64,000 nucleotides of DNA from Escherichia phage chee24, in sequence record NC_047885.1; one strand, written 5' to 3'. The position numbers were made by a program, and so were the translations under genes. The stretch's first letter is position 1. The number at the start of each line of letters is the position of its first letter. Under the pieces are notes generated by a model, which had not been told where the DNA came from, did no database searches, and saw only the letters and a program-made list of their open reading frames with translations. Shown here in pieces: positions 3,670-44,292 of the stretch.

Positions 3670-3763
3670 TGGTACACCCACGGAGAATTGAACTCCGATT
3701 CTCAGATTGAACTCCGATTCTCAGATTGAAATCCTGATGTCCTAGCCATTAGACGATAGGTGT
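3670..3763 (-). tRNA. tRNA-Glu-like gene (anticodon UUC) with a 19-bp tandem duplication at the variable-loop position
   Basis: Removing one repeat copy gives a 75-nt cloverleaf (acceptor ACACCTA/TGGGTGT, D-arm GTCT-AATGGCTA-GGAC, anticodon stem TCAGG/TCTGA, T-arm CGGAG-TTCAATT-CTCCG); as encoded it is 94 nt. Confidence 0.45.
3687..3730. repeat. perfect 19-bp tandem duplication (ATTGAACTCCGATTCTCAG x2) plus a 6-bp partial third copy
   Basis: Exact copies at 3687-3705 and 3706-3724. Confidence 0.85.
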
Positions 3764-3987: not shown

Positions 3988-4263
3988 TTAGTCGAACTTA
4001 GGAGTGATAGTTAAGGAGAACGGAAGTTCGAAAACTTCTTCGCCCTCATTACTAACGGTAACTACACGACCTTTAAGTTCAGACATTAAAATATCAATAT
4101 CAGCTTTTGCATCTGGAGCCATGCCAGCTTCAATACATTTAGCTTTAACTTCCGGTAAAAGCTCTACGTTATAGAGATAGAGCCACTCAATCTCACCTTC
4201 CCAGTCTTCCCAGGATTTGCAGATTGCACTTTCAATACCAGTTGCTACAACACGATTTTGCAT
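3988..4263 (-). CDS. hypothetical protein (91 aa)
   Basis: ORF with promoter-like TTGCCT-18-TATAAT (minus sense) at about 4290-4345 upstream. Confidence 0.55.
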   Translation of the reverse strand: MQNRVVATGIESAICKSWEDWEGEIEWLYLYNVELLPEVKAKCIEAGMAPDAKADIDILMSELKGRVVTVSNEGEEVFELPFSLTITPKFD

Positions 4264-4353
4264 TAATTAACTCCTTCATCAATTTATATAACTATTATAC
4301 CAGAAATTTAAAGTAAAAGGCAAGTACATTTTTAAAAATTCTGTTTGGAGGAG

Positions 4354-4560
4354 CTAAACTCCAGATTTTTCGGCCAAGTCTAGACTAATAAGAGTTATAG
4401 CCATAATTGCTGCACCGTGTTCTTTTTCTCCGGTGTTTTTAGCAGAGTCTATAATATCCTTAATCTGTTCGTAATAACTTTTTACTTCTTGTTCAATGCC
4501 TGCCTCGGCTATCATGCCTTTAGCCATGAATCGTTGCATGGTAATTTCAGGATTAGCCAT
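4354..4560 (-). CDS. hypothetical protein (68 aa)
   Basis: ORF; start overlaps the stop of the 4553-4720 ORF. Confidence 0.5.
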   Translation of the reverse strand: MANPEITMQRFMAKGMIAEAGIEQEVKSYYEQIKDIIDSAKNTGEKEHGAAIMAITLISLDLAEKSGV

Positions 4561-4720
4561 GTTGTTTCTCCAGTTTCATTTTTAATAGTTTACAGATGAA
4601 ATCAACGTCTTCATCTGTGCCTAAGTCTCTATCCTCAAGGGTCGCCTTGAAGTTTTTCGTCAATTCCATGAGGATGACTTCCCTAGAACGACGTGTTGGC
4701 GGAGGTGGATGTCTATACAT
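4553..4720 (-). CDS. small hypothetical protein (55 aa)
   Basis: Unlisted ORF below the track cutoff, coupled to the downstream gene. Confidence 0.35.
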   Translation of the reverse strand: MYRHPPPPTRRSREVILMELTKNFKATLEDRDLGTDEDVDFICKLLKMKLEKQHG

Positions 4721-4735
4721 CTTATTTCCTTAATT

Positions 4736-4812
4736 TGGTAGGGGTGGTGGGATTCGAACCCACAAAACCTGAATTTTAAGTCCAGTACCTATGCCAATTC
4801 GATTACACCCCC
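4736..4812 (-). tRNA. tRNA with anticodon UAA (Leu-like, but short variable loop)
   Basis: Acceptor GGGGGTG/CACCCCT, T-arm GTGGG-TTCGAAT-CCCAC, anticodon stem CTGGA/TTCAG with loop CTTAAAA. Confidence 0.5.
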
Positions 4813-5107
4813 ATGTAATCAGTTTATTAGTTGATACATATTATAGCCTAAAGAAAACCCTACTACTAATCCTACGAACCAACCAATATAATAATCTTTT
4901 AATTTCACGGGTGTCAACCTCGTTCAATATCTAGAGAAATACCACAGGTAGGATTAATGCCTGTGCCTTTGCACGTCGGACAAACCCAGATATTACAGAA
5001 TGTATCCCCTGCTTCTGCATCAGAACTTTTCCAACTCCTAGACAGTTAGGACAGGCACATTCTTCTAGCTCTTGCTTGAGTTCTTGAAACTTAGACATAT
5101 AGTTTCC

Positions 5108-5296
5108 TTATTCAATTACTTTTGAGGCTTCAAGGGAGTCGATATAGTGTACGTTTTCTACCATGATCATATAATCTGCCACTTTATCCATAGCCTGAGC
5201 TTCAGAGGTAGCCCTGGCTAACCTATATCCTTTTTTATATTCATCCGGGTATTCCCTATCTGGAATAAACACAACACAAACTAGGTATAGTTCCAC
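5108..5296 (-). CDS. hypothetical protein (62 aa)
   Basis: ORF in the minus-strand series. Confidence 0.4.
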   Translation of the reverse strand: MELYLVCVVFIPDREYPDEYKKGYRLARATSEAQAMDKVADYMIMVENVHYIDSLEASKVIE

Positions 5297-5317
5297 TTGT
5301 AACCTCTCTAATCAAGA

Positions 5318-5395
5318 TGGTGGCTCCCCGAGGATTCGAACCTACGTACCTTCCGGTTATGAGCCGGATGCTCATACCATATGAGCTTGAGAACC
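5318..5395 (-). tRNA. tRNA-Met or Ile2 (anticodon CAU), CCA encoded
   Basis: Acceptor GGTTCTC/GGGAGCC, anticodon stem TCCGG/CCGGA with loop CTCATAA; T-stem imperfect. Confidence 0.55.
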
Positions 5396-5401
5396 AGAAT
5401 T

Positions 5402-5490
5402 TGGCGGAAGAAGTGGGAATCGAACCCACAAGGCTATATTTCAAACCGACAGATTAGCAATCTGCTGCAATACCGTTATGCTATTCTTCC
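5402..5490 (-). tRNA. tRNA-Ser (anticodon GCU), long variable arm, CCA encoded
   Basis: Acceptor GGAAGAA/TTCTTCC, anticodon stem GCAGA/TCTGT with loop TTGCTAA, T-arm GTGGG-TTCGATT-CCCAC, 89 nt. Confidence 0.6.
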
Positions 5491-5505
5491 GAATTTATAA
5501 GATAT

Positions 5506-5534
5506 ATTATATTAGAAATTTAGCTTCATAGCAA
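5506..5534 (-). promoter_or_regulatory. sigma70-like early promoter (minus sense TTGCTA-17-TATAAT) upstream of tRNA-Ser
   Basis: Plus-strand ATTATA 5506-5511 and TAGCAA 5529-5534; same conserved promoter family. Confidence 0.55.
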
Positions 5535-6030
5535 GAAAATTTTTCAAGTTTTCGGTAGACATCTCATCCACATCTACAGGAGAAACAAATCCATTTAATT
5601 GTCTAGCAAATTTTTCACCAGCAGGATCATTATCCCCAACAGCTACCAATTTAAAAGGTAGTAATTTCAATTGCTTTAACAACGCTTTTCCTGGAGAAGA
5701 ACCCAACATTGCCAGGGCTGGATAACCAGCGTTATGTAATGCTACGGCCTTAAATACAGATTCCGCAACCAATACTACTTTTTCATCCCCATTGAGAGTT
5801 TCCAGCCCCCATACACACTGTGTAGTAGAATAAGTAAAATACTTAGCTTCAAAAGGAGATTTACCATGACCTTTTGGAGCAGAAGGATTATAAGTCTGAT
5901 AGCCTCTCAACATCCCAGAGAAGTCATACAATGGGACTGTTAGCCATCCTTCCGGACTTAACCAGCAATGATATTTATCTGTATCAAACCCTCTAGATAA
6001 GAGATGTTCTGTTAGTTCATCAACAGTCAT
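5512..6030 (-). CDS. TOPRIM-domain protein, primase-like paralog lacking a zinc finger (172 aa)
   Basis: VVLVAESVFKAVAL and VAVGDNDPAG motifs (Glu plus DxD) align with the TOPRIM region of the primase at 37630-38520. Confidence 0.55.
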   Translation of the reverse strand: MTVDELTEHLLSRGFDTDKYHCWLSPEGWLTVPLYDFSGMLRGYQTYNPSAPKGHGKSPFEAKYFTYSTTQCVWGLETLNGDEKVVLVAESVFKAVALHNAGYPALAMLGSSPGKALLKQLKLLPFKLVAVGDNDPAGEKFARQLNGFVSPVDVDEMSTENLKNFLAMKLNF

Positions 6031-6058
6031 ATTAGATTCCTCTCAAATTTATAAATAT

Positions 6059-6087
6059 ATTATACAGAGGATTTAGCATTCAAGCAA
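6059..6087 (-). promoter_or_regulatory. sigma70-like early promoter (minus sense TTGCTT-17-TATAAT) for 5512-6030
   Basis: Plus-strand ATTATA 6059-6064 and AAGCAA 6082-6087. Confidence 0.55.
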
Positions 6088-6165
6088 TTGAATTTTTTAA
6101 CTTTTTAGAGGAAAATCACAGGATGCTTACGGGTAGCAGGTAAGTGGTCAGGACCGAAATTTGTG

Positions 6166-6195
6166 ACCCCACTAAAAATCTGGGGTCAATTTTTA
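6166..6195 (+). terminator. rho-independent terminator-like hairpin at the 5' edge of the plus-strand cassette
   Basis: Stem GACCCCA/TGGGGTC with 9-nt loop, followed by AATTTTTA. Confidence 0.5.
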
Positions 6196-6203
6196 AAGAC
6201 CCC

Positions 6204-6232
6204 TTGACATTTTTGCCGGGGTAGTGTAAAGT
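6204..6232 (+). promoter_or_regulatory. sigma70-like promoter (TTGACA-17-TAAAGT) for the plus-strand cassette
   Basis: Consensus -35 at 6204-6209, 17-bp spacer, -10 TAAAGT 6227-6232, AGGAGG RBS at 6280. Confidence 0.6.
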
Positions 6233-6295
6233 ATATGTTATGGATGAGTGATCAAAGAGACACACATTTTCTATATACTAGGAGGTGTCAAAAAA

Positions 6296-7275
6296 TGACA
6301 GAAGAAGTAGCTAAGAGTCCTGAAACCGTCGCTAGCGTAGCAGCAGAACTGCATCGTCACGAGGAATCAGATAAGAAAAAGTGGGAGAAAGTCAAAGCCT
6401 ACGAAGAAGAACATCGTGAACACGATGATAAAGATGAAGAAGATGACGATGATGAACATTGTCATAAATATGGAAAACATAAAATGCAAGAACCAGTAAA
6501 CGTATTTACTAATGGCTTCCCTGGCATGGGTGCATTCCCAGCTAACGCAAGTGCTTTCGGTGGAGAAGGTATGGGTCTATTCGGAGCTATCCTAATCGGT
6601 GCTCTATTAACAGGCGGATTTGGTGGTTTTGGTGGTTTTGGCCGTGGTGCTGGCGTTGCCGCTGAAGGGACTGCTGTGGACGCGATCCTTTCTAACCAAG
6701 ATACTGCAAGTATTCTAGCTGCAATCAATACTACTCGTACAGAAGCTAACCAGGGCACTGGGGCTGTTCTAAGCGCAGTAAACGGTGTGGGAGCTGCTCA
6801 AGCTGCTAGCACTCAGCAAGTTCTGACTACTATCTACGGTACAGGTGCTAATCTGTCAAACCAGATCTGTGCTGAAACTCGTAACGTTATTCAGGGTCAG
6901 TTCGATCTTTCTCGTCAGATGGATCAATCTTTCGCTGCTAACCAGATCGCACGTGCTCAAGATAAGTTTGACTCTGCTCAGATTGCTTTCCAGCAGTCTA
7001 TTCAGACCAATAACCAGTTTGCCGCTGTTCAGGCTCAGATGTGTGCTAACCAGAATGCTATAGAGCGTCAGCTTGCTGAATGTTGCTGTGAACTTCAGAC
7101 TGCGATCGCTGGTGTAACTACTGCGCGTATCCAGGACGAACTGAATGAATGCCGTCTGCGTGAAGCAATCGCTCAAGGTAGTGGTGCTAACGGTCAGGTA
7201 ATTAACCAAATCGCTGTAAGTCTTGGTGCTATCACTCAGACTCTGGCTGGTCTGCAGGCTAAACTGCCGGCTTAA
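6296..7275 (+). CDS. hypothetical protein (326 aa): acidic N-terminus, Gly-rich hydrophobic segment, Gln/Ala-rich C-terminal half
   Basis: Track ORF 6235-7275 trimmed to the ATG at 6296 behind AGGAGG; segment GMGLFGAILIGALLTGGFGGFGGFG looks like a glycine-zipper membrane helix; codons look more GC-rich than neighbours. Confidence 0.6.
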
Positions 7276-9095: not shown

Positions 9096-9597
9096 TTTAA
9101 GTATTTTTAAGAACTCTCGTAAAAACTCTTAAAAATACAGACGATACCGGGAGAGTCATAAGTCTCACTCATTAAGTATTTCAAGACAAAATACAGTAAC
9201 GTCTATTATTTTCCAGTTTAAGTCAAGGTGACTTAGTGGTTATGTCCTGCGGTATACTGAGGACTAGGTTAGGTTAGGGTCATGACTCCCCACCTTTTTG
9301 CTGCTACTCAACAGGAGTTATCGCGAATTACCTGTGCTATTGTGCACCATTAGTGGCATCTCTCATGCCAGCATTTCCCACTTTGTGGATAGTTTGAAAA
9401 ACTACTCCGATATGGAGAAAGAACTTCACTATCCTAGAATACCTTCTAAAGTTCTTCTTTAGCCTGGACATAGTTAAATCGTAATAAAACTATTCAGCAG
9501 ACTGGTTGGTTAGTCTGGAACCAACTACCGCGTGGTTTAGGCAGTGCGCAACTAACCTCGGAAGCTTTTACATTAAAAGCACCAGTTATCCAGTTCT

Positions 9598-9670
9598 TAC
9601 CGACCGTAGGATTCGAACCTACATCTTCCACCAGTTACGGCTTGATAATACCGTTTTATACTAGATCGGC
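9598..9670 (-). ncRNA. tRNA-like element (canonical acceptor stem and T-arm, irregular core)
   Basis: Acceptor GCCGATC/GGTCGGT and T-arm GTAGG-TTCGAAT-CCTAC; no standard anticodon arm identified. Confidence 0.3.
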
Positions 9671-9893
9671 AGTGTTACTACATAAGTGATTTCCACACCC
9701 CACTATCAGTAAATTAGAGAAGAGTTTAGGGGAGAGGTTTCAGACGCCCCATTTTACACGTTCTAGCCACTAACCGGGATTGCCGCCCCCTGTGTACTAG
9801 TTTTCCAACTAACCCACCGACTCTATTCAATGCGCTCCGGTTGGGATTCTGCACTCAGCGTAATCGGCTCGCTGTTCTCTAATTTATGAATAT

Positions 9894-11827: not shown

Positions 11828-12466
11828 TTACTCTACTTCAATGAAGGTAGAGGCGTTAGACTCGGACAGAACAAAGTCAACATTTGTTGCAAAGTCCTGA
11901 TATTCCTCGTCATGCTGCTTAATCAGCTTCTCCAGTTCCAGCGGATCAATCAAGAATGGAGTATTCTTGAGTTCCAGCAGGTTGAGCTGCATTTTAACTT
12001 CATCTTCGGAAGTTTTCTTATCGCGGGTAGCCATGCTATCCTGCAAACGCTCATATTTAGCATCAAACTGTGCTTTCTGCGTATTAAACTTAACCGTAGC
12101 GGCATGGAACTGCTTACGCATGTTAGCCAGCAGCTGAGCTTTAAGCTCCATAGAACGCTTAGCTTCAATTGCTTCCGCAACAGTCATCTTACGAGAACCA
12201 ATCTCAACTACTGTTTCCGCATTGCTCTTAATCAGAGCAGCTTTGATACGATCACGCTTGGACATCATATCCATGAGAGATTGGAAATCTGCCTTAATAC
12301 GTGCAGACAGATCGTCTACTTCGATTGCAGCGCCAACTACAACCTTATTTTTATCCTTACCTTCACCAACAGCGATCAGAAGCTGTTGTTCAGTAGCTTT
12401 ACGGATTTTAGCTTCCAGAGATTTGATAGTTGCCAGAGCGCGAGTTTTAGAGATACGAGTAGTCAT
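11828..12466 (-). CDS. hypothetical protein (212 aa)
   Basis: Minus-strand ORF with protein-like composition; preferred over the overlapping plus ORF. Confidence 0.55.
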   Translation of the reverse strand: MTTRISKTRALATIKSLEAKIRKATEQQLLIAVGEGKDKNKVVVGAAIEVDDLSARIKADFQSLMDMMSKRDRIKAALIKSNAETVVEIGSRKMTVAEAIEAKRSMELKAQLLANMRKQFHAATVKFNTQKAQFDAKYERLQDSMATRDKKTSEDEVKMQLNLLELKNTPFLIDPLELEKLIKQHDEEYQDFATNVDFVLSESNASTFIEVE

Positions 12467-14060: not shown

Positions 14061-14576
14061 TTACTTCGCTTTACGCTTGCGAGCTGGTTTAGCAGATTTA
14101 CGAGCAGAATCACCCGTGAACTTAATGCCTACACCGTAACACAGAGCACGAACATTATCTTTACTATACTCTACGCCAAAGATATTTGGCTTAACAGAAC
14201 CAAACTGTCCACGAGTATCACGCAATACATCTGCTGTTGGTTTACGCTTCTGGTTAACTGCCTTCTCATAGTCTTTCATAGACATACCATTACGAGAGAA
14301 CAATTCAGCCCCAGCGTTGAAGCTCAGGGAAACTGGGACAGATTTGTGGCCGTAATTTTCTACATACATAACCATTTTGTAGGATTTACGGGTAGCATTT
14401 TTAGCTTTAGGCTTCTGACGAATCGGAGCCGGATTATTCAGTGCTTGCGCAGCCTGAGCATCGGTAGGATGCTTACGCAGGTGACGTTCCAGGCGAGCTT
14501 TGCGATTAGCCTCAGTCTTCGGGAAAGTTTTAACTGCCGGAGCTGCTTGAGTTTTTGCGTTTTTCTGCTTAGCCAT
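14061..14576 (-). CDS. basic Lys/Arg-rich protein (171 aa), possible nucleic-acid binding
   Basis: ORF with highly basic termini. Confidence 0.5.
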   Translation of the reverse strand: MAKQKNAKTQAAPAVKTFPKTEANRKARLERHLRKHPTDAQAAQALNNPAPIRQKPKAKNATRKSYKMVMYVENYGHKSVPVSLSFNAGAELFSRNGMSMKDYEKAVNQKRKPTADVLRDTRGQFGSVKPNIFGVEYSKDNVRALCYGVGIKFTGDSARKSAKPARKRKAK

Positions 14577-31983: not shown

Positions 31984-32394
31984 ATGACTACTCCAACTCA
32001 GTGGACTGATGAACTGTTCGAAAAAATGTCTTCCGAATACGTTGCTCGTATGGAGCAATTCCCAGAGGATGAACGTCCGGGTGTTAGCATGGAAATTGTT
32101 AGCGAAATTGCCCAGGAAAACGGTGTAACTCCGAACGGTTTTCGTATGAAGCTAACTAAAGCAGGTATGTATATCAAGAAAGCTGCTGGCTCCGCTTCTA
32201 AATCTAGCGCATCTGCTGGAGAAAAAGCTTCTGGTGGTTCTCGTACTTCCAAAGCCCAAGCTCATGCCGATCTTCGTTCAGCATTCTCTGATGCTGGCCT
32301 AGCACCAGATTTTCTGGATGATGCAATTATCGACAAACTGACCGGTAAAGCGGCTGCCCATCTTGCAGAAGCAATCCGAGCTATCACTAAGTAA
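31984..32394 (+). CDS. hypothetical protein (136 aa) with Ser/Ala-rich linker
   Basis: ORF behind AAGGAAA. Confidence 0.5.
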   Translation: MTTPTQWTDELFEKMSSEYVARMEQFPEDERPGVSMEIVSEIAQENGVTPNGFRMKLTKAGMYIKKAAGSASKSSASAGEKASGGSRTSKAQAHADLRSAFSDAGLAPDFLDDAIIDKLTGKAAAHLAEAIRAITK

Positions 32395-34336: not shown

Positions 34337-34479
34337 TACATAACCCTTTGCTACCCATCTACCATATCGGAATTATAAAGTGGTTATTGACATTTCCGCC
34401 GCTTAGGTATATACTATTATCATTCAGTTGAGGGATAGAAAGTTATGGCGAGGGTAAGCAAAGTTAGTTAAAATTGTAG

Positions 34480-34508
34480 TTGCTAAATGCTTAAATACTT
34501 GCTATAAT
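34480..34508 (+). promoter_or_regulatory. sigma70-like promoter (TTGCTA-17-TATAAT) between the two ligase ORFs
   Basis: -35 34480-34485, -10 34503-34508. Confidence 0.6.
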
Positions 34509-34538
34509 ATTTATATAAATTGATAAGGAAGAAATTTG

Positions 34539-35318
34539 ATGAAAATCGAAATTCCAACACAATGTCCCTCTTGTGGTTCTAAGCTAGATCTTGTCAACGG
34601 ACAATTATTCTGTCGTAATAAGTCCAACTGTCCAGCGCAATCAAGTAAGTTAATTGAGAACTTCTGTACAAAAATGAAGTTAAAGGGCTTTGGCCCAAAA
34701 ACTATTGAGAAGCTGGAGCTGACGAAGATTTCAGAACTATTTTACCTAACCGAAGAAGATTTGGTTAGAGCCGTGGGTAGCAAGGTTGCCGCTAAGTTAA
34801 TTAGCGAATTAAATAATAAAGTTCGCGGAGACATTGACTTTGGTTCAGTTCTCGGTTCTTTAGGAATCCCTCTAATCGGAGAGGTTGCAGCAAAGAAATT
34901 GTCCCAAAATTGCACCAGTTTTCAAGATGTGAGAGCTGATGGCAGAGCTGGAGAAAATTATAAAGCCTGGCTAAATTCCCCACAAGGCAAGGATGTTATC
35001 GAATTACCGTGGAAATTCACAACTGGTATTAAAGGTGCTAAAGCTGAGGTCATCATCACTGATGGTCTAGTAGCCCAACCAAACGGAATAACGGTATGTA
35101 TTACCGGATCTTTGCAAGATTTTGCAAATAGAACGGATGCAACAAACTATTTAGAAGGTCTAGGATATACGGTTAAGAAATCCGTTACCAAAGACGTCAA
35201 ATACCTAATCTGTGAGGATGAATCGAAGCGTTCTTCCTCATCTTATAAGAAAGCCGAAACGAATGGGATAGAAATCCTGTCGATTAAAGAACTATTGGAG
35301 AAAAATAATAATGTCTAA
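34539..35318 (+). CDS. NAD-dependent DNA ligase, C-terminal part (zinc finger, HhH, BRCT-like)
   Basis: CPSCGS...CRNKSNCPAQ zinc-finger motif; ATG at 34539 behind AAGGAAGAAA. Confidence 0.7.
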   Translation: MKIEIPTQCPSCGSKLDLVNGQLFCRNKSNCPAQSSKLIENFCTKMKLKGFGPKTIEKLELTKISELFYLTEEDLVRAVGSKVAAKLISELNNKVRGDIDFGSVLGSLGIPLIGEVAAKKLSQNCTSFQDVRADGRAGENYKAWLNSPQGKDVIELPWKFTTGIKGAKAEVIITDGLVAQPNGITVCITGSLQDFANRTDATNYLEGLGYTVKKSVTKDVKYLICEDESKRSSSSYKKAETNGIEILSIKELLEKNNNV

Positions 35319-36078
35319 ACTGAACTGGAACGTAGAAGGTGTAACCGAGTCTCTGAAAGCAAAAGCCACTGCTCTGGGTGTTGCTGTAATCTCTCAAGAA
35401 CAAGTAGCTGCTATCGCTGCTGAACTGGCTGCTGAAACTGGCAAAGACGTTACCGCTCGCTCTGTTGGCTCTAAGCTGCGTAAAGAAGGTTTCGAAGTAC
35501 AGAAAGCTAACGAAGTACAGAAATCCCCATGGACTCCTGAGCAGGAAGCTGAACTGGTTGATTTCCTGAACGCTCATGCTGGTCAGTATACTTATGCTGA
35601 AATCGCTGCTGCTGTAGCTGGTGGTCAGTTCGGTGCTAAGCAGGTACAGGGTAAAATCTTGAGTCTGGAAATGACCGCATCTGTTAAGCCGACCGAAAAA
35701 GCTGCTGCTGTTCGTTCCTTCACTCCGGATGAAGAAACTGACTTTGTTAATCAGGTTGTTGCTGGAGCTACTATTGAAGCTATCGCTGCTCACTTCGGTC
35801 GTAATATCAAGCAGATCCGTGGTAAAGCTCTGAGTCTGCTTCGTGAAGGTCGTATCGCTGCTATGCCGGTACAGGAAACTTCAAGTGCTAAAACTCGTGA
35901 AGATCTGTTAGAAGGTCTGGATCTGGCTAACATGACTGTTGCTGAGATCGCTGAGAAAACTGGTAAGTCTGAGCGCGGTGTTAAATCTATGCTGTCTCGT
36001 CGTGGTCTGGTTGCTAAGGACTATGATGGTGCCGCTAAGCGTGCTAAACTGGATGCAAAAGCTGCGGCTGCTGAATAA
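35311..36078 (+). CDS. abundant-type protein with three internal HTH-like repeats (255 aa), putative DNA-binding
   Basis: Three repeats (TYAEIAAA...GKILSL, IEAIAAHFG...GKALSLL, TVAEIAEKTG...KSML); codon choice looks strongly host-optimal. Confidence 0.55.
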   Translation: MSKLNWNVEGVTESLKAKATALGVAVISQEQVAAIAAELAAETGKDVTARSVGSKLRKEGFEVQKANEVQKSPWTPEQEAELVDFLNAHAGQYTYAEIAAAVAGGQFGAKQVQGKILSLEMTASVKPTEKAAAVRSFTPDEETDFVNQVVAGATIEAIAAHFGRNIKQIRGKALSLLREGRIAAMPVQETSSAKTREDLLEGLDLANMTVAEIAEKTGKSERGVKSMLSRRGLVAKDYDGAAKRAKLDAKAAAAE

Positions 36079-36095
36079 TCTGGTAAATTAAACCT

Positions 36096-36130
36096 AAGGG
36101 GAGGGGGCTATGCTCCTTCCCCTTTTTGCA
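36096..36130 (+). terminator. rho-independent terminator after 35311-36078
   Basis: Stem AAGGGGAGG/CCTTCCCCTT followed by TTTTG. Confidence 0.6.
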
Positions 36131-36160
36131 TTTAGAAGGCACGAAAGCGTGCAAAGGAGA

Positions 36161-37633
36161 ATGACCTTGTTTAACGTGCAAGCTGTAGTGTTGAAGATGC
36201 TTCTAGCTTCCGAACAGAAGCAAATAGCATTGGAAACATTCTCAAAACTGCATAAAGATCATTTTAATGACGCTTTCTCCTCAATTTACCAAGCCGTCCA
36301 GAATTATTATAAAAAATATAACACAATGCCGTCCATTGACGCACTGATGCTTGAGGCTAATAGGAACGCCCGCCTTTCTCAAGCTCTAGTCGTTTTAGCT
36401 AACACTCAAATTCCAGAAGTTAGCATGGAACAGGCACTTGAAGTCCTAGAAGCCGAGTATACACAGGATTTATTCCTGAAGCTTCTAGAAACAGACGTGC
36501 TTCAAGATTTAACAATGCTGGATCAGGGAGAAATTCTTAACCGAGTTGCCTCCCTTCACTTAAAATTAGAAGAGAAAGTAACGAATACTGGAAAAGTATT
36601 CAACGCAGATAACATGCGTATTTTCCAGAGAGAAGAAGATACCAAACTGAACTTAATCGCTCTTGGTATTTGTAATGAGTTCGACGCTCAAATTGGTTTA
36701 GCTCGCACAGAAACGTTACTGCTTGGTGGTTGGCGTGGTACTGGTAAATCCATTATCTGTTCAAACATACAGGTTCAGCAATATTTGAATGGAGATATTG
36801 CTCCATACTTCTCAATTGAGATGAAAGAACATGAAGTATTTAGACGTAATCTAGCTATGTTAGCTGGTGTATCAGCACTAGCAATGCGTAATAATACTCT
36901 AGAAGGTGCAGCTCTGTTGAGATTAGCCAGAACTAGAGCTAGGATGTTTAACGGTGGTGAAGAGCTTTTCGATAACTTCGTTAAACAGTACACAATGGCT
37001 AAGATGAGTGATTTCTACGATATGGAAAGTAAGCTAATAGAAGGGTATGAATTACATACTCCTATGATTATTGTTTATGATCCTGAGCTGTCTATTACAA
37101 CAGTTGACGTAGAATTAAATAAATTAGTTGCTAGATATGGGGATAAAGTTACAGTAGCTTTACTGGACTATATTAACCAAACCCGACTTCCAGATTCTAA
37201 AACCATTGATATGTATGACTGGAAAGAACAGATGGTTGTTAGCTCGTCTTTCAAATCTATCTGCCAGAAACATAACGTGGCTGGTGTAGCTCCTTACCAG
37301 ATTGATCAAGATGGTAGAACACGTATGTCAAAGGGGATTCTTGATTCCGCAGACATGGCTGCTAATCTTAATGCTGCAAAAGCGGATAATGGTCAAGGTG
37401 CTATTATGTTTGACTTCGTTAAGACTCGTTCTTCTGATAGCGTGAAGTTTATGCCTAAAATGAACTGGGAAACCCTGCGGATGGATAACACTACCAACCT
37501 AGCAATGGAAGATATATCTCAAATGGAAGCTGAGTTCGTTATCCCTATTGAGAAGGATAAGCCGGCTCAATCTAAACGTGCTAAGAAAGACAAAGCTGAA
37601 AATTCAACAGGTGAACAGGCCAGCGATATATGA
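36161..37633 (+). CDS. DnaB-family replicative helicase-like protein
   Basis: Walker A GWRGTGKS and SIEM (DnaB SLEM-like) motif; start moved to the ATG behind AAAGGAGA, past the terminator. Confidence 0.65.
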   Translation: MTLFNVQAVVLKMLLASEQKQIALETFSKLHKDHFNDAFSSIYQAVQNYYKKYNTMPSIDALMLEANRNARLSQALVVLANTQIPEVSMEQALEVLEAEYTQDLFLKLLETDVLQDLTMLDQGEILNRVASLHLKLEEKVTNTGKVFNADNMRIFQREEDTKLNLIALGICNEFDAQIGLARTETLLLGGWRGTGKSIICSNIQVQQYLNGDIAPYFSIEMKEHEVFRRNLAMLAGVSALAMRNNTLEGAALLRLARTRARMFNGGEELFDNFVKQYTMAKMSDFYDMESKLIEGYELHTPMIIVYDPELSITTVDVELNKLVARYGDKVTVALLDYINQTRLPDSKTIDMYDWKEQMVVSSSFKSICQKHNVAGVAPYQIDQDGRTRMSKGILDSADMAANLNAAKADNGQGAIMFDFVKTRSSDSVKFMPKMNWETLRMDNTTNLAMEDISQMEAEFVIPIEKDKPAQSKRAKKDKAENSTGEQASDI

Positions 37634-43001: not shown

Positions 43002-43063
43002 ATATACATAAATTTGAGAGAGAAAGTTTAGGATTGATAAGAAAGTCCGAAGCAGAAAAATAA

Positions 43064-43093
43064 AAATTTTAGTTGCTAAATTCTCTCGAAATC
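43064..43093 (+). promoter_or_regulatory. sigma70-like promoter (TTGCTA-18-TATAAT), second of the pair
   Basis: -35 43064-43069, -10 43088-43093, same conserved leader. Confidence 0.55.
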
Positions 43094-43209
43094 TAGTATA
43101 ATATATACATAAATTCGAGGAGAAAACAAAAATTAAATTCTTCGATTATGAAAAGCTATACTTACTAGCTAGAGGAAATTCCGACTTAATTATTAAGCTA
43201 TTCAAAAGA

Positions 43210-43494
43210 ATGCTTACAGAGCCTGATGCTCACCAATTACTGGTCGGTTCCTCATTCATTTTGAATGAATCAACAATAGTTGATAATCCAAATAAATTGT
43301 CTAATAGACAACTGGCAGAATATCTAGGAATTTTAAGTCTACGAAATTATGCCGAATACAAGTTTACAAACGATCCTAGTTTGGACATACAATATGTTCC
43401 AGTATGGATACCACGTTTAGTAATCGACACTAACCCACTAATCGCAATTAACAAATCGAAATTAATCTTTAAAGAGGAAATAAAATATGGCTAA
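43210..43494 (+). CDS. hypothetical protein (94 aa)
   Basis: ORF with weak RBS. Confidence 0.4.
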   Translation: MLTEPDAHQLLVGSSFILNESTIVDNPNKLSNRQLAEYLGILSLRNYAEYKFTNDPSLDIQYVPVWIPRLVIDTNPLIAINKSKLIFKEEIKYG

Positions 43495-44260
43495 GTCTTG
43501 GGGCGAAACTACTGGCGGTTCTAACGATAAAATCGAATTCCTGAAGTTCAACAACGGTATCACTCGTGTTCGTATCGTTTCTGGTGTTCTTCCACGTTAT
43601 GTCTACTGGCTGACTAATAAAGAGGGTAGCGTAGCTCCTTTCGAATGTCTCCGTTTTAACCGCGACAAAGAGAGCTTTGTTCGTGGTAAAGCTGATCCGG
43701 TTCATGAGATGGGCTTCTTTGAGAAAGAGCTGGATAAAGATGGTAATCGCGTTCCGCTGAAACCGAAGAAAAACTATATCGCTTTTGTTATCGACCGTTC
43801 TGATAACAAACTGAAAGTAATGGAAGTCAAAGCTACTATTCTGAAAGGCATCCAGTCTATCATGAAGCAGTTGAATCTGGCAACTCCGTTTGATATTGAT
43901 ATTTCTATTGAGAAAAAAGGCAAAGGTTTCGATACTGAGTATGATGTACAGCAGATTGCTGCTATGCAGTTCCAGATTAAGCTGCAAGATCCTAACAGTG
44001 CAGAATCTAAGCAATATGCTGCGGATGTAGATCTGATTGGTGAAGCTATGTGTGACGAAGATGGCGACATCATTAAGTTCGAAAAAGTTCCTTCTCTGGA
44101 ACAAACCTATCCGGTTCCTACCTATGAAGAGCAGAAAGAAGCAATTCAAGCCTTCATGGAAGGTCGTGAGAATAAAGATGATGATGCCAAATCTGGTAAC
44201 AGCAATGCTGGTTCCCAGAAAGGTATTGACCAAGAAGCTGCAAGCGATCTGGACGATTAA
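43487..44260 (+). CDS. acidic-tailed protein (257 aa), possible ssDNA-binding protein
   Basis: AAGAGGA RBS; host-optimal codons; acidic C-terminal tail (..EAASDLDD); function is inferred. Confidence 0.5.
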   Translation: MAKSWGETTGGSNDKIEFLKFNNGITRVRIVSGVLPRYVYWLTNKEGSVAPFECLRFNRDKESFVRGKADPVHEMGFFEKELDKDGNRVPLKPKKNYIAFVIDRSDNKLKVMEVKATILKGIQSIMKQLNLATPFDIDISIEKKGKGFDTEYDVQQIAAMQFQIKLQDPNSAESKQYAADVDLIGEAMCDEDGDIIKFEKVPSLEQTYPVPTYEEQKEAIQAFMEGRENKDDDAKSGNSNAGSQKGIDQEAASDLDD

Positions 44261-44266
44261 TAAATA

Positions 44267-44292
44267 GAGGGGCCGAAGCCCCTTTCTTTTTA
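44267..44292 (+). terminator. rho-independent terminator
   Basis: Hairpin AGGGGC-CGAA-GCCCCT followed by TTCTTTTT. Confidence 0.65.

What the first reader, a model, noticed from the sequence alone, without database searches (positions are those of the whole stretch)
35311..36078. Two early genes with conspicuously host-optimal codon usage; one built from three internal repeats
35311-36078 and 43487-44260 use codons typical of highly expressed E. coli genes (CTG, CGT, GGT, GCT), unlike the A/T-rich surrounding genes. This suggests very high expression. The first protein is made of three HTH-like repeat units, the second ends in an acidic tail like SSBs.
Basis: seen in the sequence. Interest (0 to 1): 0.45.

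Follow-up and report, generated by a model that had tools for sequence, protein, structure and literature searches.

The report
Abundant T5 DNA-binding proteins D5 and D11

Summary
The window is a T5-like phage, 100% identical to GenBank MF431731.1. ORF 35311-36078 is gene D5 (253/255 aa identical to T5). ORF 43487-44260 is gene D11 (256/257).

The codon observation is confirmed. The two genes rank 1st and 2nd of 75 CDSs by E. coli CAI: 0.705 and 0.557 against a median of 0.274 (z = +14 and +10 against synonymous resampling). With weights rebuilt from 30 real MG1655 ribosomal/EF genes, D5 scores 0.774, above the median of those genes. GC3 is not raised, and the D5 gene has no DNA match in 5,426 E. 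coli genomes.

The bias is conserved in orthologues from Klebsiella, Proteus and Vibrio phages, but the preferred Leu codon differs between them (CTG, TTA, CTA). That points to translational selection for abundance. Published SDS-PAGE and proteomics report D5 as very abundant.

D5 has four HTH units plus a C-terminal helix, not three repeats. Only units 2 and 3 are clear sequence repeats. The recognition helices are the most conserved and are basic.

Both proteins are already known. The new details are the four-module architecture and the different preferred codons in phages of different hosts.

The parts
34367..34441 (+). Promoter P-K28b of T5 (TTGACA-17-TATACT at 34387-34415), upstream of ligB and D5
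   Evidence: 74/75 identical to the feature annotated in AY692264. 11/12 consensus match.
34460..34534 (+). Promoter P-K28a of T5 (TTGCTA-17-TGnTATAAT at 34480-34508)
   Evidence: 75/75 identical to the T5 annotated feature. 10/12 consensus match with extended -10 TG.
34539..35318 (+). ligB (NAD-ligase subunit B). Upstream cistron that overlaps the D5 start by 8 nt. Poorly host-adapted codons.
   Evidence: Annotation. CAI 0.219, rank 57/75.
35297..35300 (+). Shine-Dalgarno GGAG for D5, with a 10-nt A-rich spacer
   Evidence: Read from the sequence.
35311..36078 (+). Gene D5: 255 aa, 27.0 kDa, pI 6.8. Abundant dsDNA-binding early protein.
   Evidence: PHROG_323 'D5-like' E = 2e-71. 253/255 identical to T5p116. 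CAI rank 1/75.
35311..35514 (+). D5 unit 1 (aa 1-68): three-helix HTH, helices 11-22, 29-43, 49-58. Recognition helix ARSVGSKLRK.
   Evidence: AF2. hhalign against unit 2 P = 3e-4. Helix 3 identity 0.87, charge +4. Weak engrailed-homeodomain match E = 0.003.
35515..35691 (+). D5 unit 2 (aa 69-127): Myb-like three-helix HTH, helices 76-88, 95-101, 109-118
   Evidence: AF2. hhalign against unit 3 P = 1e-9, probability 96.5%. Pairwise z = 8.
35692..35880 (+). D5 unit 3 (aa 128-190): three-helix HTH, helices 139-150, 155-162, 166-178
   Evidence: HTH_23 E = 1e-4.
35881..36075 (+). D5 unit 4 (aa 191-255): sigma-region-4.2-like HTH (helices 210-217, 221-231) plus a conserved C-terminal helix 240-254
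   Evidence: Pfam Sigma70_r4_2 29.1 bits, above the cut-off of 25.7. 38/45 family members match. AF2.
36096..36134 (+). Intrinsic terminator just after D5 (13-bp stem, 8 GC pairs, T-run)
   Evidence: A terminator is annotated at the same place in phage Sugarland.
43061..43129 (+). Putative early promoter upstream of the small ORF and D11 (TTGCTA-18-TATAAT at 43073-43102)
   Evidence: 69/69 identical to the T5 'putative promoter'. Scan hit.
43210..43494 (+). Small ORF (94 aa, PHROG_4258, unknown function) that overlaps the D11 start by 8 nt. Very low CAI.
   Evidence: CAI 0.160, rank 72/75.
43472..43479 (+). Shine-Dalgarno AAGAGGAA for D11; the GAGG core (43474-43477) lies 9 nt before the ATG
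   Evidence: Read from the sequence.
43487..44260 (+). Gene D11: 257 aa, 28.9 kDa, pI 4.9. gp32-like single-strand DNA-binding protein.
44171..44257 (+). D11 disordered acidic C-terminal tail (aa 229-257, net charge -6 over the last 30 aa, conserved EAASDLDD end)
   Evidence: pLDDT < 50 for 229-257. Tail conservation and charge across the family.
44266..44285 (+). Intrinsic terminator hairpin just after D11, followed by a T-run
   Evidence: A terminator is annotated at the same place in Sugarland.

Best explanation
ORF 35311-36078 is phage T5 gene D5 and ORF 43487-44260 is gene D11. Both proteins act by occupying DNA rather than by catalysis, so they are needed in very large numbers. Selection for fast, efficient translation has driven their synonymous codons to the set used by the host's own ribosomal-protein genes.

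Shown here:
- D5 is a single chain of four helix-turn-helix modules in series plus a C-terminal helix.
- The third (recognition) helix of each module is the most conserved part and carries net positive charge.
- The gene has its own Shine-Dalgarno, lies downstream of the tandem T5 promoters P-K28b/a, and is followed by an intrinsic terminator.
- D11 has a gp32-type OB fold followed by a disordered acidic tail.

Inferred:
- Each D5 module lays its recognition helix in the DNA major groove, so one monomer spans several helical turns.
- Many monomers coat replicating phage DNA with little sequence preference.
- That coating is how D5 affects replication and the early-to-late switch, as reported in the 1979 genetics.
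- D11 coats single-stranded DNA at forks, and its acidic tail regulates binding and recruits replication partners, as in T4 gp32.
For: Identity:
- 100% nucleotide identity to MF431731.1.
- D5 is 253/255 aa and D11 256/257 aa identical to T5.
- PHROG_323 and PHROG_1607 matches.
- The ligB-D5-terminator-helicase synteny is conserved out to Proteus and Vibrio phages.
- The residues mutated in published T5 D5 escape phages (G53, W74, V149, G232) match this protein.

Translational selection:
- CAI ranks 1 and 2 of 75, z = +14 and +10.
- D5 CAI 0.774 against a median of 0.68 for real E. coli ribosomal/EF genes.
- GC3 is not raised.
- The D5 gene has no DNA match in 5,426 E. coli genomes.
- The co-transcribed upstream cistrons are among the least adapted genes (0.219 and 0.160).
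- Orthologues keep the top ranks. In Sugarland D5 and D11 are 1/33 and 2/33 by CAI. In Proteus PM135 D5 and D11 are 1/32 and 2/32 by CAI, and D5 has the lowest ENC. In Vibrio D386 D11 and D5 have the two lowest ENC of 37.
- The preferred Leu codon differs between these phages: CTG, then TTA 14/22, then CTA 14/21.
- The abundant late major capsid gene is also host-adapted, CAI 0.69.

Abundance:
- D5 is among the top spectral-count proteins in phiR2-01 (PMC8624392).

DNA binding:
- In the retron-Kva2 preprint, D5 expression triggers the retron and purified D5 remodels the complex; binding of its HTH to the msdDNA is an AlphaFold3 prediction.
- Four HTH units: AF2 pLDDT 92.7 and hhalign.
- Sigma70_r4_2 match above the Pfam cut-off.
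- Recognition helices: identity 0.81 against 0.58, p = 3e-7, charges +4, +2, +4, +3.

D11:
- 3 of 37 relatives match Pfam gp32.
- Acidic tail.
- Called the T5 SSB in preprint 10.64898/2026.02.22.705581.
Against: - No binding mode, site size, cooperativity or sequence preference of D5 could be tested here. The coating model rests on abundance, architecture and old biochemistry that I could not read.
- D5 has a near-neutral pI (6.8), unlike classic basic nucleoid proteins.
- pTM is only 0.51, so the relative arrangement of the modules is unknown.
- Unit 4 lacks a modelled first helix, and units 1 and 4 are only weakly similar to units 2 and 3.
- The abundant tail-tube gene is only moderately adapted (CAI 0.45, CTG 6% of Leu), so abundance does not predict codon usage perfectly.
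- The reported T5 escape phage carries W74* in D5. That sits oddly with an essential coating role unless the population was mixed or the stop codon is suppressed.
Confidence: 0.85

Rival explanations
1. D5 is mainly a sequence-specific late-gene transcription factor, or a sigma-like specificity subunit, that directs host RNA polymerase to late promoters. It would not be a bulk DNA-coating protein.
For: - Annotated as 'late gene transcription factor', 'RNA polymerase sigma factor' or 'putative transcription factor' in several records.
- Unit 4 matches Sigma70_r4_2 above the Pfam cut-off.
- According to the 1979 paper title, the D5 product affects late gene expression.
Against: - No sigma region 2 or any other sigma region was detected. 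Only HTH-type matches were found.
- Codon adaptation at the level of ribosomal proteins, and visible abundance on gels, far exceed what a site-specific factor needs.
- T5 transcription of all gene classes is attributed to sigma70 holoenzyme (abstract of PMC7472727).
- The two roles are not mutually exclusive.
Confidence: 0.2
2. The host-like codons reflect timing, not amount. On this view, early proteins must be made from host tRNAs before the phage's own tRNAs accumulate, so D5 and D11 avoid codons served by phage tRNAs.
For: - The window encodes tRNA-Leu(UAA), Arg(UCU) and Pro(UGG), and two CAU-anticodon tRNAs, one of which might be an ATA-reading Ile tRNA.
- D5 uses TTA/TTG 2/19, AGA/AGG 0/12 and ATA 0/10. 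The rest of the window uses them at 37%, 29% and 17%.
Against: - The late major capsid gene is just as host-adapted (CAI 0.69, CTG 76%).
- Most early genes on the same transcripts are among the least adapted: ligB 0.219, the ORF upstream of D11 0.160, helicase 0.279.
- Many phage tRNAs read codons that are host-optimal anyway: Lys-UUU, Glu-UUC, Asp-GUC, Asn-GUU, Phe-GAA.
Confidence: 0.07
3. The bias is an artefact or a historical accident. Possible causes would be recent capture of a host gene, local GC content, or Ala-rich low-complexity sequence (GCT runs) inflating the CAI.
For: D5 is 18% alanine and has the highest GC of its neighbourhood (0.478). Short GCT-rich DNA repeats are present.
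Against: - The resampling null keeps the amino-acid sequence and still gives z = +14.
- GC3 is 0.33, no higher than in other genes.
- blastn of the D5 gene finds nothing in 5,426 E. coli genomes.
- Homologues are confined to T5-like phages: 901 phage records and consistent synteny.
- The bias is retained in orthologues with 50-77% aa identity, with a different preferred Leu codon in each.
Confidence: 0.02

Closest known systems
Bacteriophage T5 gene D5 protein (T5p116 / T5.118; PHROG_323 'D5-like transcriptional regulator')
   Same: 253/255 aa identical, the same ligB-D5-helicase position, the same promoters and terminator. Described as a DNA-binding protein affecting replication and late expression (title seen). 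Very abundant. Triggers retron-Kva2.
   Different: Nothing of substance; this is the same protein in a sister phage (A25 and A206 here, D and V in T5). The four-module reading and the codon analysis are added here and were not found in the papers I could read.
T4 / RB69 gp32 single-strand DNA-binding protein (Pfam PF08804)
   Different: Only 15-16% identity. The window protein has no Pfam gp32 match. It has only two Cys and one His, so the gp32 zinc site (His64/Cys77/Cys87/Cys90, from my own knowledge) cannot be formed. No obvious basic N-terminal cooperativity motif.
Tandem homeodomain-like / Myb-type HTH DNA binders (Myb R2R3, Tc3 bipartite domain, POU, Timeless DNA-binding domain)
   Same: D5 units are three-helix bundles with an aromatic residue before helix 1 and a conserved basic third helix. 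The weak fold and sequence matches are to these proteins. Unrelated proteins with 6-10 similar units exist.
   Different: All matches are below significance for the whole chain (Foldseek best E about 0.1). The Pfam Myb score is below its cut-off (17.6 against 24.4). D5 lacks the three regularly spaced Trp of Myb repeats. No solved protein has this four-module arrangement.
Sigma-70 family region 4.2
   Same: D5 unit 4 (aa 204-230) matches the HTH of region 4.2 above the Pfam gathering score.
   Different: No region 2 (-10 recognition and core binding), no significant region 3, and no region 1. D5 is not a sigma factor.

Membership tests
T5 D5 protein family (PHROG_323) | Full-length sequence similarity to T5 D5 | tested here: met
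   PHROG_323 E = 1.9e-71 over aa 1-253. 253/255 identical to T5p116. 76 cluster representatives at E <= 1e-30, typically 233-262 aa.
T5 D5 protein family (PHROG_323) | Genomic position between NAD-ligase subunit B and the DnaB-like helicase in Demerecviridae | tested here: met
   Same order in the window, T5, Sugarland, PM135 and Vibrio D386.
T5 D5 protein family (PHROG_323) | Binds double-stranded DNA; required for replication and late gene expression | not testable with these tools
   Only literature: the 1979 title and the predicted HTH-msdDNA binding in the retron-Kva2 preprint. The primary papers are not held.
T5 D5 protein family (PHROG_323) | Very high abundance in infected cells | tested here: inconclusive
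   Codon adaptation equals that of E. coli ribosomal-protein genes, which is indirect. Direct evidence is published for T5/BF23 and phiR2-01, not for this isolate.
Sigma-70 family | Region 2 (core binding and -10 recognition, PF04542) | tested here: not met
   No region 2 match at E <= 1 in the window protein, nor among the top families for 45 members.
Sigma-70 family | Region 4.2 HTH | tested here: met
   PF08281 29.1 bits against a cut-off of 25.7, aa 204-230. 38/45 members match.
Myb/SANT repeat proteins (PF00249) | Pfam score above the gathering threshold | tested here: not met
   17.6 bits against a cut-off of 24.4. 11/45 family members reach E < 0.01.
Myb/SANT repeat proteins (PF00249) | Three regularly spaced Trp per repeat | tested here: not met
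   Read from the sequence: one aromatic per unit at the Myb-like position before helix 1 (W6, W74, F137).
gp32-like SSB (PF08804) | OB-fold core superimposable on gp32 | tested here: met
gp32-like SSB (PF08804) | Sequence match to the Pfam gp32 model | tested here: not met
   No match for the window protein. 3/37 relatives match, best E = 5.9e-6. No PDB hit by profile search.
gp32-like SSB (PF08804) | Cys3-His zinc site in the core | tested here: not met
   D11 has only C54, C189 and H73. Only C54 is invariant. The gp32 ligand list is from my own knowledge.
gp32-like SSB (PF08804) | Disordered acidic C-terminal tail | tested here: met
   pLDDT < 50 for aa 229-257. Net charge -4 to -8 over the last 30 aa across the family, with a conserved EAASDLDD end.
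gp32-like SSB (PF08804) | Binds single-stranded DNA | not testable with these tools
   Treated as the T5 SSB in preprint 10.64898/2026.02.22.705581, which bases the OB fold on an AlphaFold3 model.

The most novel reading that the evidence does not exclude
D5 is a phage 'chromatin' protein. It would be a beads-on-a-string chain of four HTH modules, with the module number able to change (a natural five-module variant exists). Near-stoichiometric coating of replicating phage dsDNA would itself be the switch from early to late transcription. Its abundance and exposed HTH surfaces would explain why host immune sensors such as retron-Kva2 have evolved to detect it. Its codon usage differs between T5-like phages of different hosts, which would make D5 and D11 sensitive reporters of host adaptation in Demerecviridae.
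Probability: 0.3. Interest if true: 0.5.

Novelty: already known. Interest (0 to 1): 0.2.

Why it matters
The result is mostly confirmatory. A reader with no tools correctly picked out, from codon usage alone, the phage's two bulk DNA-coating proteins. The quantitative test shows how sharp that signal is: ranks 1 and 2 of 75, at the level of host ribosomal-protein genes.

Three details may be useful to T5 workers:
- D5 has four HTH modules, each with a conserved basic recognition helix. This gives a concrete model for its cooperative dsDNA binding and for which surface retron-Kva2 may sense.
- Adjacent cistrons on the same transcripts have opposite codon adaptation (ligB 0.22 and D5 0.70). Output is therefore probably set at the level of translation.
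- In orthologues from phages of other hosts the bias is kept but the preferred codon differs. That is clean evidence for ongoing translational selection, and it could be used as a marker for host prediction.

Tried and rejected
1. **Host-gene capture.** blastn (word size 11) of the D5 gene against 5,426 complete E. coli genomes found nothing. GC3 is not raised.
2. **Amino-acid composition or GCT-run artefact.** The resampling null keeps the protein sequence and gives z = +14. DNA-level repeats are only short, 61-83% identical matches over the I-A-A motif, so the modules are not a recent duplication.
3. **'Early genes use host tRNAs, late genes use phage tRNAs'.** Rejected as the main cause. 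The late major capsid gene has CAI 0.69 with 76% CTG, and co-transcribed early genes are poorly adapted.
4. **Sigma factor.** Only a region-4.2-type HTH is present; there is no region 2.
6. **PDB sequence and profile searches.** No solved structure of either family.
7. **DRT4 trigger.** The 'phage-encoded DNA binding protein' in that paper is ORF55 from the deletable region, not D5 or D11.
8. **Classical D5 papers.** McCorquodale 1979 is not held. I recall Rice/Moyer and Fujimura/Roop papers on gpD5 but did not try to fetch them. Statements about a roughly 29 kDa, cooperative dsDNA-binding protein rest on my memory and are marked as such.
9. **CAI weights.** It was then checked against weights derived from real MG1655 genes (r = 0.976; D5 and D11 stay 1st and 2nd).
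Full report
**What the window is.** A megablast of 34500-37000 gives 100% identity to the T5-like phages pork27, pork29 and others (MF431731.1) and 98.3% to T5 itself. The first 50 kb of the window equal MF431731.1 positions 32000-81999 exactly. ORF 35311-36078 is the homologue of T5p116. Different records annotate it as 'D5 protein', 'DNA-binding protein' or 'putative transcription factor'. ORF 43487-44260 is T5 gene D11. At the protein level they are 253/255 and 256/257 identical to T5. [quoted passage not shown]

**The observation.** I scored all 75 annotated CDSs of the window.
These are ranks 1 and 2, against a median of 0.274.
- Against a null that keeps each protein sequence and redraws synonymous codons from the rest of the window, z = +14.2 and +9.7.
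- Because the weights came from memory, I rebuilt them from 30 real MG1655 ribosomal-protein, EF-Tu/G and rpoA genes. The two tables correlate at 0.976 and D5 and D11 remain 1st and 2nd.
- With the rebuilt weights D5 scores 0.774, above the median (0.68) of the E. coli reference genes themselves. D11 scores 0.675. The window median is 0.366, close to weakly expressed E. coli genes (0.34).
- In D5, CTG is 84% of Leu (15% elsewhere), ATC 90% of Ile (24%), GCT 87% of Ala (50%), and there is no AGA/AGG (29% elsewhere). ENC is 30.8, the lowest in the window.
- GC3 is 0.33, so this is a shift to the specific host-optimal codons (many of them T-ending), not a GC shift.

**Why the codons are like that.** Several explanations were tested.
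- Host-gene capture is excluded. The D5 gene has no blastn match in 5,426 complete E. coli genomes, and homologues are phage proteins in conserved synteny (901 phage records).
- Composition artefacts are excluded by the resampling null.
- The bias is a conserved property of the orthologues. In Klebsiella phage Sugarland (77% aa identity), D5 and D11 are again ranks 1 and 2 of 33 (CAI 0.685 and 0.681).
- In Proteus phage PM135 (55%), D5 and D11 rank 1/32 and 2/32 by CAI, D5 has the lowest ENC, and its preferred Leu codon is TTA (14/22).
- In Vibrio phage D386 (51%), D11 and D5 have the two lowest ENC of 37 genes, and D5 prefers CTA (14/21).
- A bias that is kept while the preferred codon differs between phages of different hosts is the signature of ongoing translational selection.
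- I considered that the cause might be early timing, that is, translation from host tRNAs before phage tRNAs accumulate. D5 and D11 do avoid TTA/TTG, AGA/AGG and ATA. The window encodes phage tRNAs for the first two pairs, and possibly for ATA.
- That idea fails as the main cause. The late major capsid gene is equally host-adapted (CAI 0.69, CTG 76%). Early genes on the same transcripts are among the least adapted: ligB 0.219, the small ORF before D11 0.160.
- The bias therefore follows the amount of protein. The third early gene with high CAI (31984-32394) is also a 'DNA binding protein' family.

[quoted passage not shown] In Yersinia phage phiR2-01, D5 is among the proteins with the highest spectral counts (PMC8624392).

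**Expression signals.**
- The two tandem promoters annotated in T5 as P-K28b and P-K28a map to 34367-34441 and 34460-34534, with 74/75 and 75/75 identity.
- ligB follows, and D5 starts 8 nt before the ligB stop (ATGTCTAA) with its own GGAG.
- A strong intrinsic terminator (36096-36124 plus a T-run) follows D5.
- D11 has the same layout: a promoter at 43061-43129, a small ORF overlapping by 8 nt (ATGGCTAA), an AAGAGGAA Shine-Dalgarno, and a terminator at 44266-44285.
- Neighbouring cistrons on one mRNA thus differ three-fold in CAI. I infer that output is set at translation.

**D5 anatomy.**
- The AlphaFold2 model built on 45 family members has mean pLDDT 92.7 but pTM 0.51. The domains are confident and their mutual arrangement is not.
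- It shows four helical units: helices 11-22/29-43/49-58, 76-88/95-101/109-118, 139-150/155-162/166-178, and 210-217/221-231 preceded by only a three-residue helical turn at 205-207. A C-terminal helix spans 240-254.
- Profile-profile comparison of the four segments gives P = 1e-9 for units 2 against 3. It gives about 1e-4 to 4e-4, in the same register, for 1-2, 1-4 and 3-4. The 1-3 (P = 1e-3) and 2-4 (P = 1e-2) comparisons are weaker.
- In the single sequence only units 2 and 3 are significantly similar (z = 8).
- There are therefore four HTH modules, not three. Two are obvious repeats and the two flanking ones are divergent.
- Unit 4 matches Sigma70_r4_2 above the Pfam cut-off. Units 2 and 3 give sub-threshold Myb and HTH_23 matches. 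Unit 1 gives a weak engrailed-homeodomain match.
- The third helix of each unit is the most conserved part (mean identity 0.81 against 0.58 for helices 1 and 2, p = 3e-7). Each carries net positive charge (+4, +2, +4, +3), while the first helices of units 2 and 3 are acidic. This is what recognition helices that contact DNA look like.
- No solved structure resembles the whole chain (best Foldseek E about 0.1). The partial matches are multi-HTH DNA binders.
- The four-module, 233-262 aa layout is typical of the full-length members among the 76 cluster representatives at E <= 1e-30. One member has five modules through duplication of unit 2. Unrelated proteins carry 6-10 similar modules.

**What D5 does.**
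- Shown in the literature I could read: the title of McCorquodale 1979 calls it a DNA-binding protein affecting replication and late expression.
- A July 2026 preprint shows that T5 D5 (255 residues) triggers the type IX retron Kva2 and is mildly toxic on its own. AlphaFold3 modelling in that preprint predicts that an HTH of D5 binds the retron's msdDNA.
- The escape phage in that preprint carries G53D, W74*, V149I and G232D. All four positions match this protein. G53, W74 and G232 are nearly invariant in my alignment.
- From memory, not verified here: gpD5 was purified as a roughly 29 kDa protein that binds dsDNA cooperatively and modulates T5 polymerase at nicks. The calculated mass of 27.0 kDa fits that. 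The 55 kDa helicase, to which AY692264 attaches the 'D5' note, does not.
- My inference: one monomer places four recognition helices along the DNA, and many monomers coat replicating phage DNA with little sequence preference. This is why the protein is needed in bulk.
- A sequence-specific or sigma-like role is not excluded, but D5 lacks sigma region 2. A site-specific role alone would not need this abundance.

**D11.**
- The model (pLDDT 81, pTM 0.75) has a beta-rich core and a disordered tail from residue 229.
- Foldseek found nothing significant.
- 3 of 37 relatives match Pfam gp32.
- The tail is acidic across the family and ends in EAASDLDD.
- D11 has two Cys and one His, so it cannot form the gp32 zinc site.
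- A 2026 preprint uses D11 as the T5 SSB that activates the DARNA defence.
- D11 works like gp32 and shares its fold, but it is a very divergent, zinc-less relative.

**Verdict.** The inference of very high expression is right. 'Three repeats' should read four HTH modules. The SSB guess is right. Both proteins and their abundance are already in the literature, so the finding is ordinary, with some added detail on architecture and codon evolution.

Noticed in passing
window 31984-32394 (+): A third early gene with strongly host-adapted codons (CAI 0.53-0.60). It belongs to PHROG_1725 'DNA binding protein' and is the homologue of T5p111. Its orthologues also rank 3/33 in Sugarland and 1/37 in Vibrio D386 by CAI.
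   Followed up: partly
window 11828-12466 (-), 14061-14576 (-), 6295-7275 (+): Three further CDSs with raised CAI (0.48-0.53; z = +5.6 to +8.4). One is labelled 'tail fiber protein' although it lies in the early region. Two are of unknown function. They are probably abundant proteins.
   Followed up: no
window 35284-35793 (-) and 43469-44233 (-): Long antisense ORFs (169 and 254 aa) lie inside D5 and D11. They are most likely a by-product of the extreme codon bias, which leaves the antisense frame free of stop codons, and not genes.
   Followed up: no
window 36096-36170: The start of the DnaB-like helicase is ambiguous. The ATG at 36110, used in the T5 annotation, sits in the loop of the D5 terminator hairpin. 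The ATG at 36161 and the TTG at 36167 (used in MF431731.1) follow an AAGGAG at 36154-36159.
   Followed up: no
window 9597-9671 (-) and 3670-3763 (-): ARAGORN calls a tRNA-Ser with anticodon ACU that is absent from the GenBank annotation and overlaps CDS 9494-9631. The tRNA-Glu call is unusually long (94 nt).
   Followed up: no
L002 (AY692264.1) 5055-6578 versus 4256-5023: Annotation conflict. The calculated mass (27 kDa) and the residue numbering in the retron-Kva2 preprint fit the 255-aa protein.
   Followed up: yes
protein P0158 (309 aa, metagenomic D5 relative): A natural five-module D5 variant in which unit 2 is duplicated in tandem. This shows that the module number can change.
   Followed up: partly
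L008 (MF431731.1 96000-120618) 2202-3608 versus 5468-6844: The major capsid gene is host-adapted (CAI 0.69, CTG 76% of Leu), but the equally abundant tail-tube gene is not (CAI 0.45, CTG 6%, TTA+TTG 44%). Abundance alone does not explain the tail-tube gene.
   Followed up: no
database records OR847187.1 and proteins P0020, P0039: A 4.8-kb 'Listeria phage LM 4-11-1' record and partial 'Enterococcus faecalis' proteins are about 98-99% identical to this T5-like ligB-D5 region. These are probably contamination or mislabelling in public data.
   Followed up: no
window 35311-35319 and 43487-43495: Both highly expressed genes start with the same arrangement, ATG-NCT-AA, in which the stop codon TAA of a poorly adapted upstream cistron is embedded 8 nt into the overlap. 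This may reflect a shared translational-coupling or initiation design.
   Followed up: no
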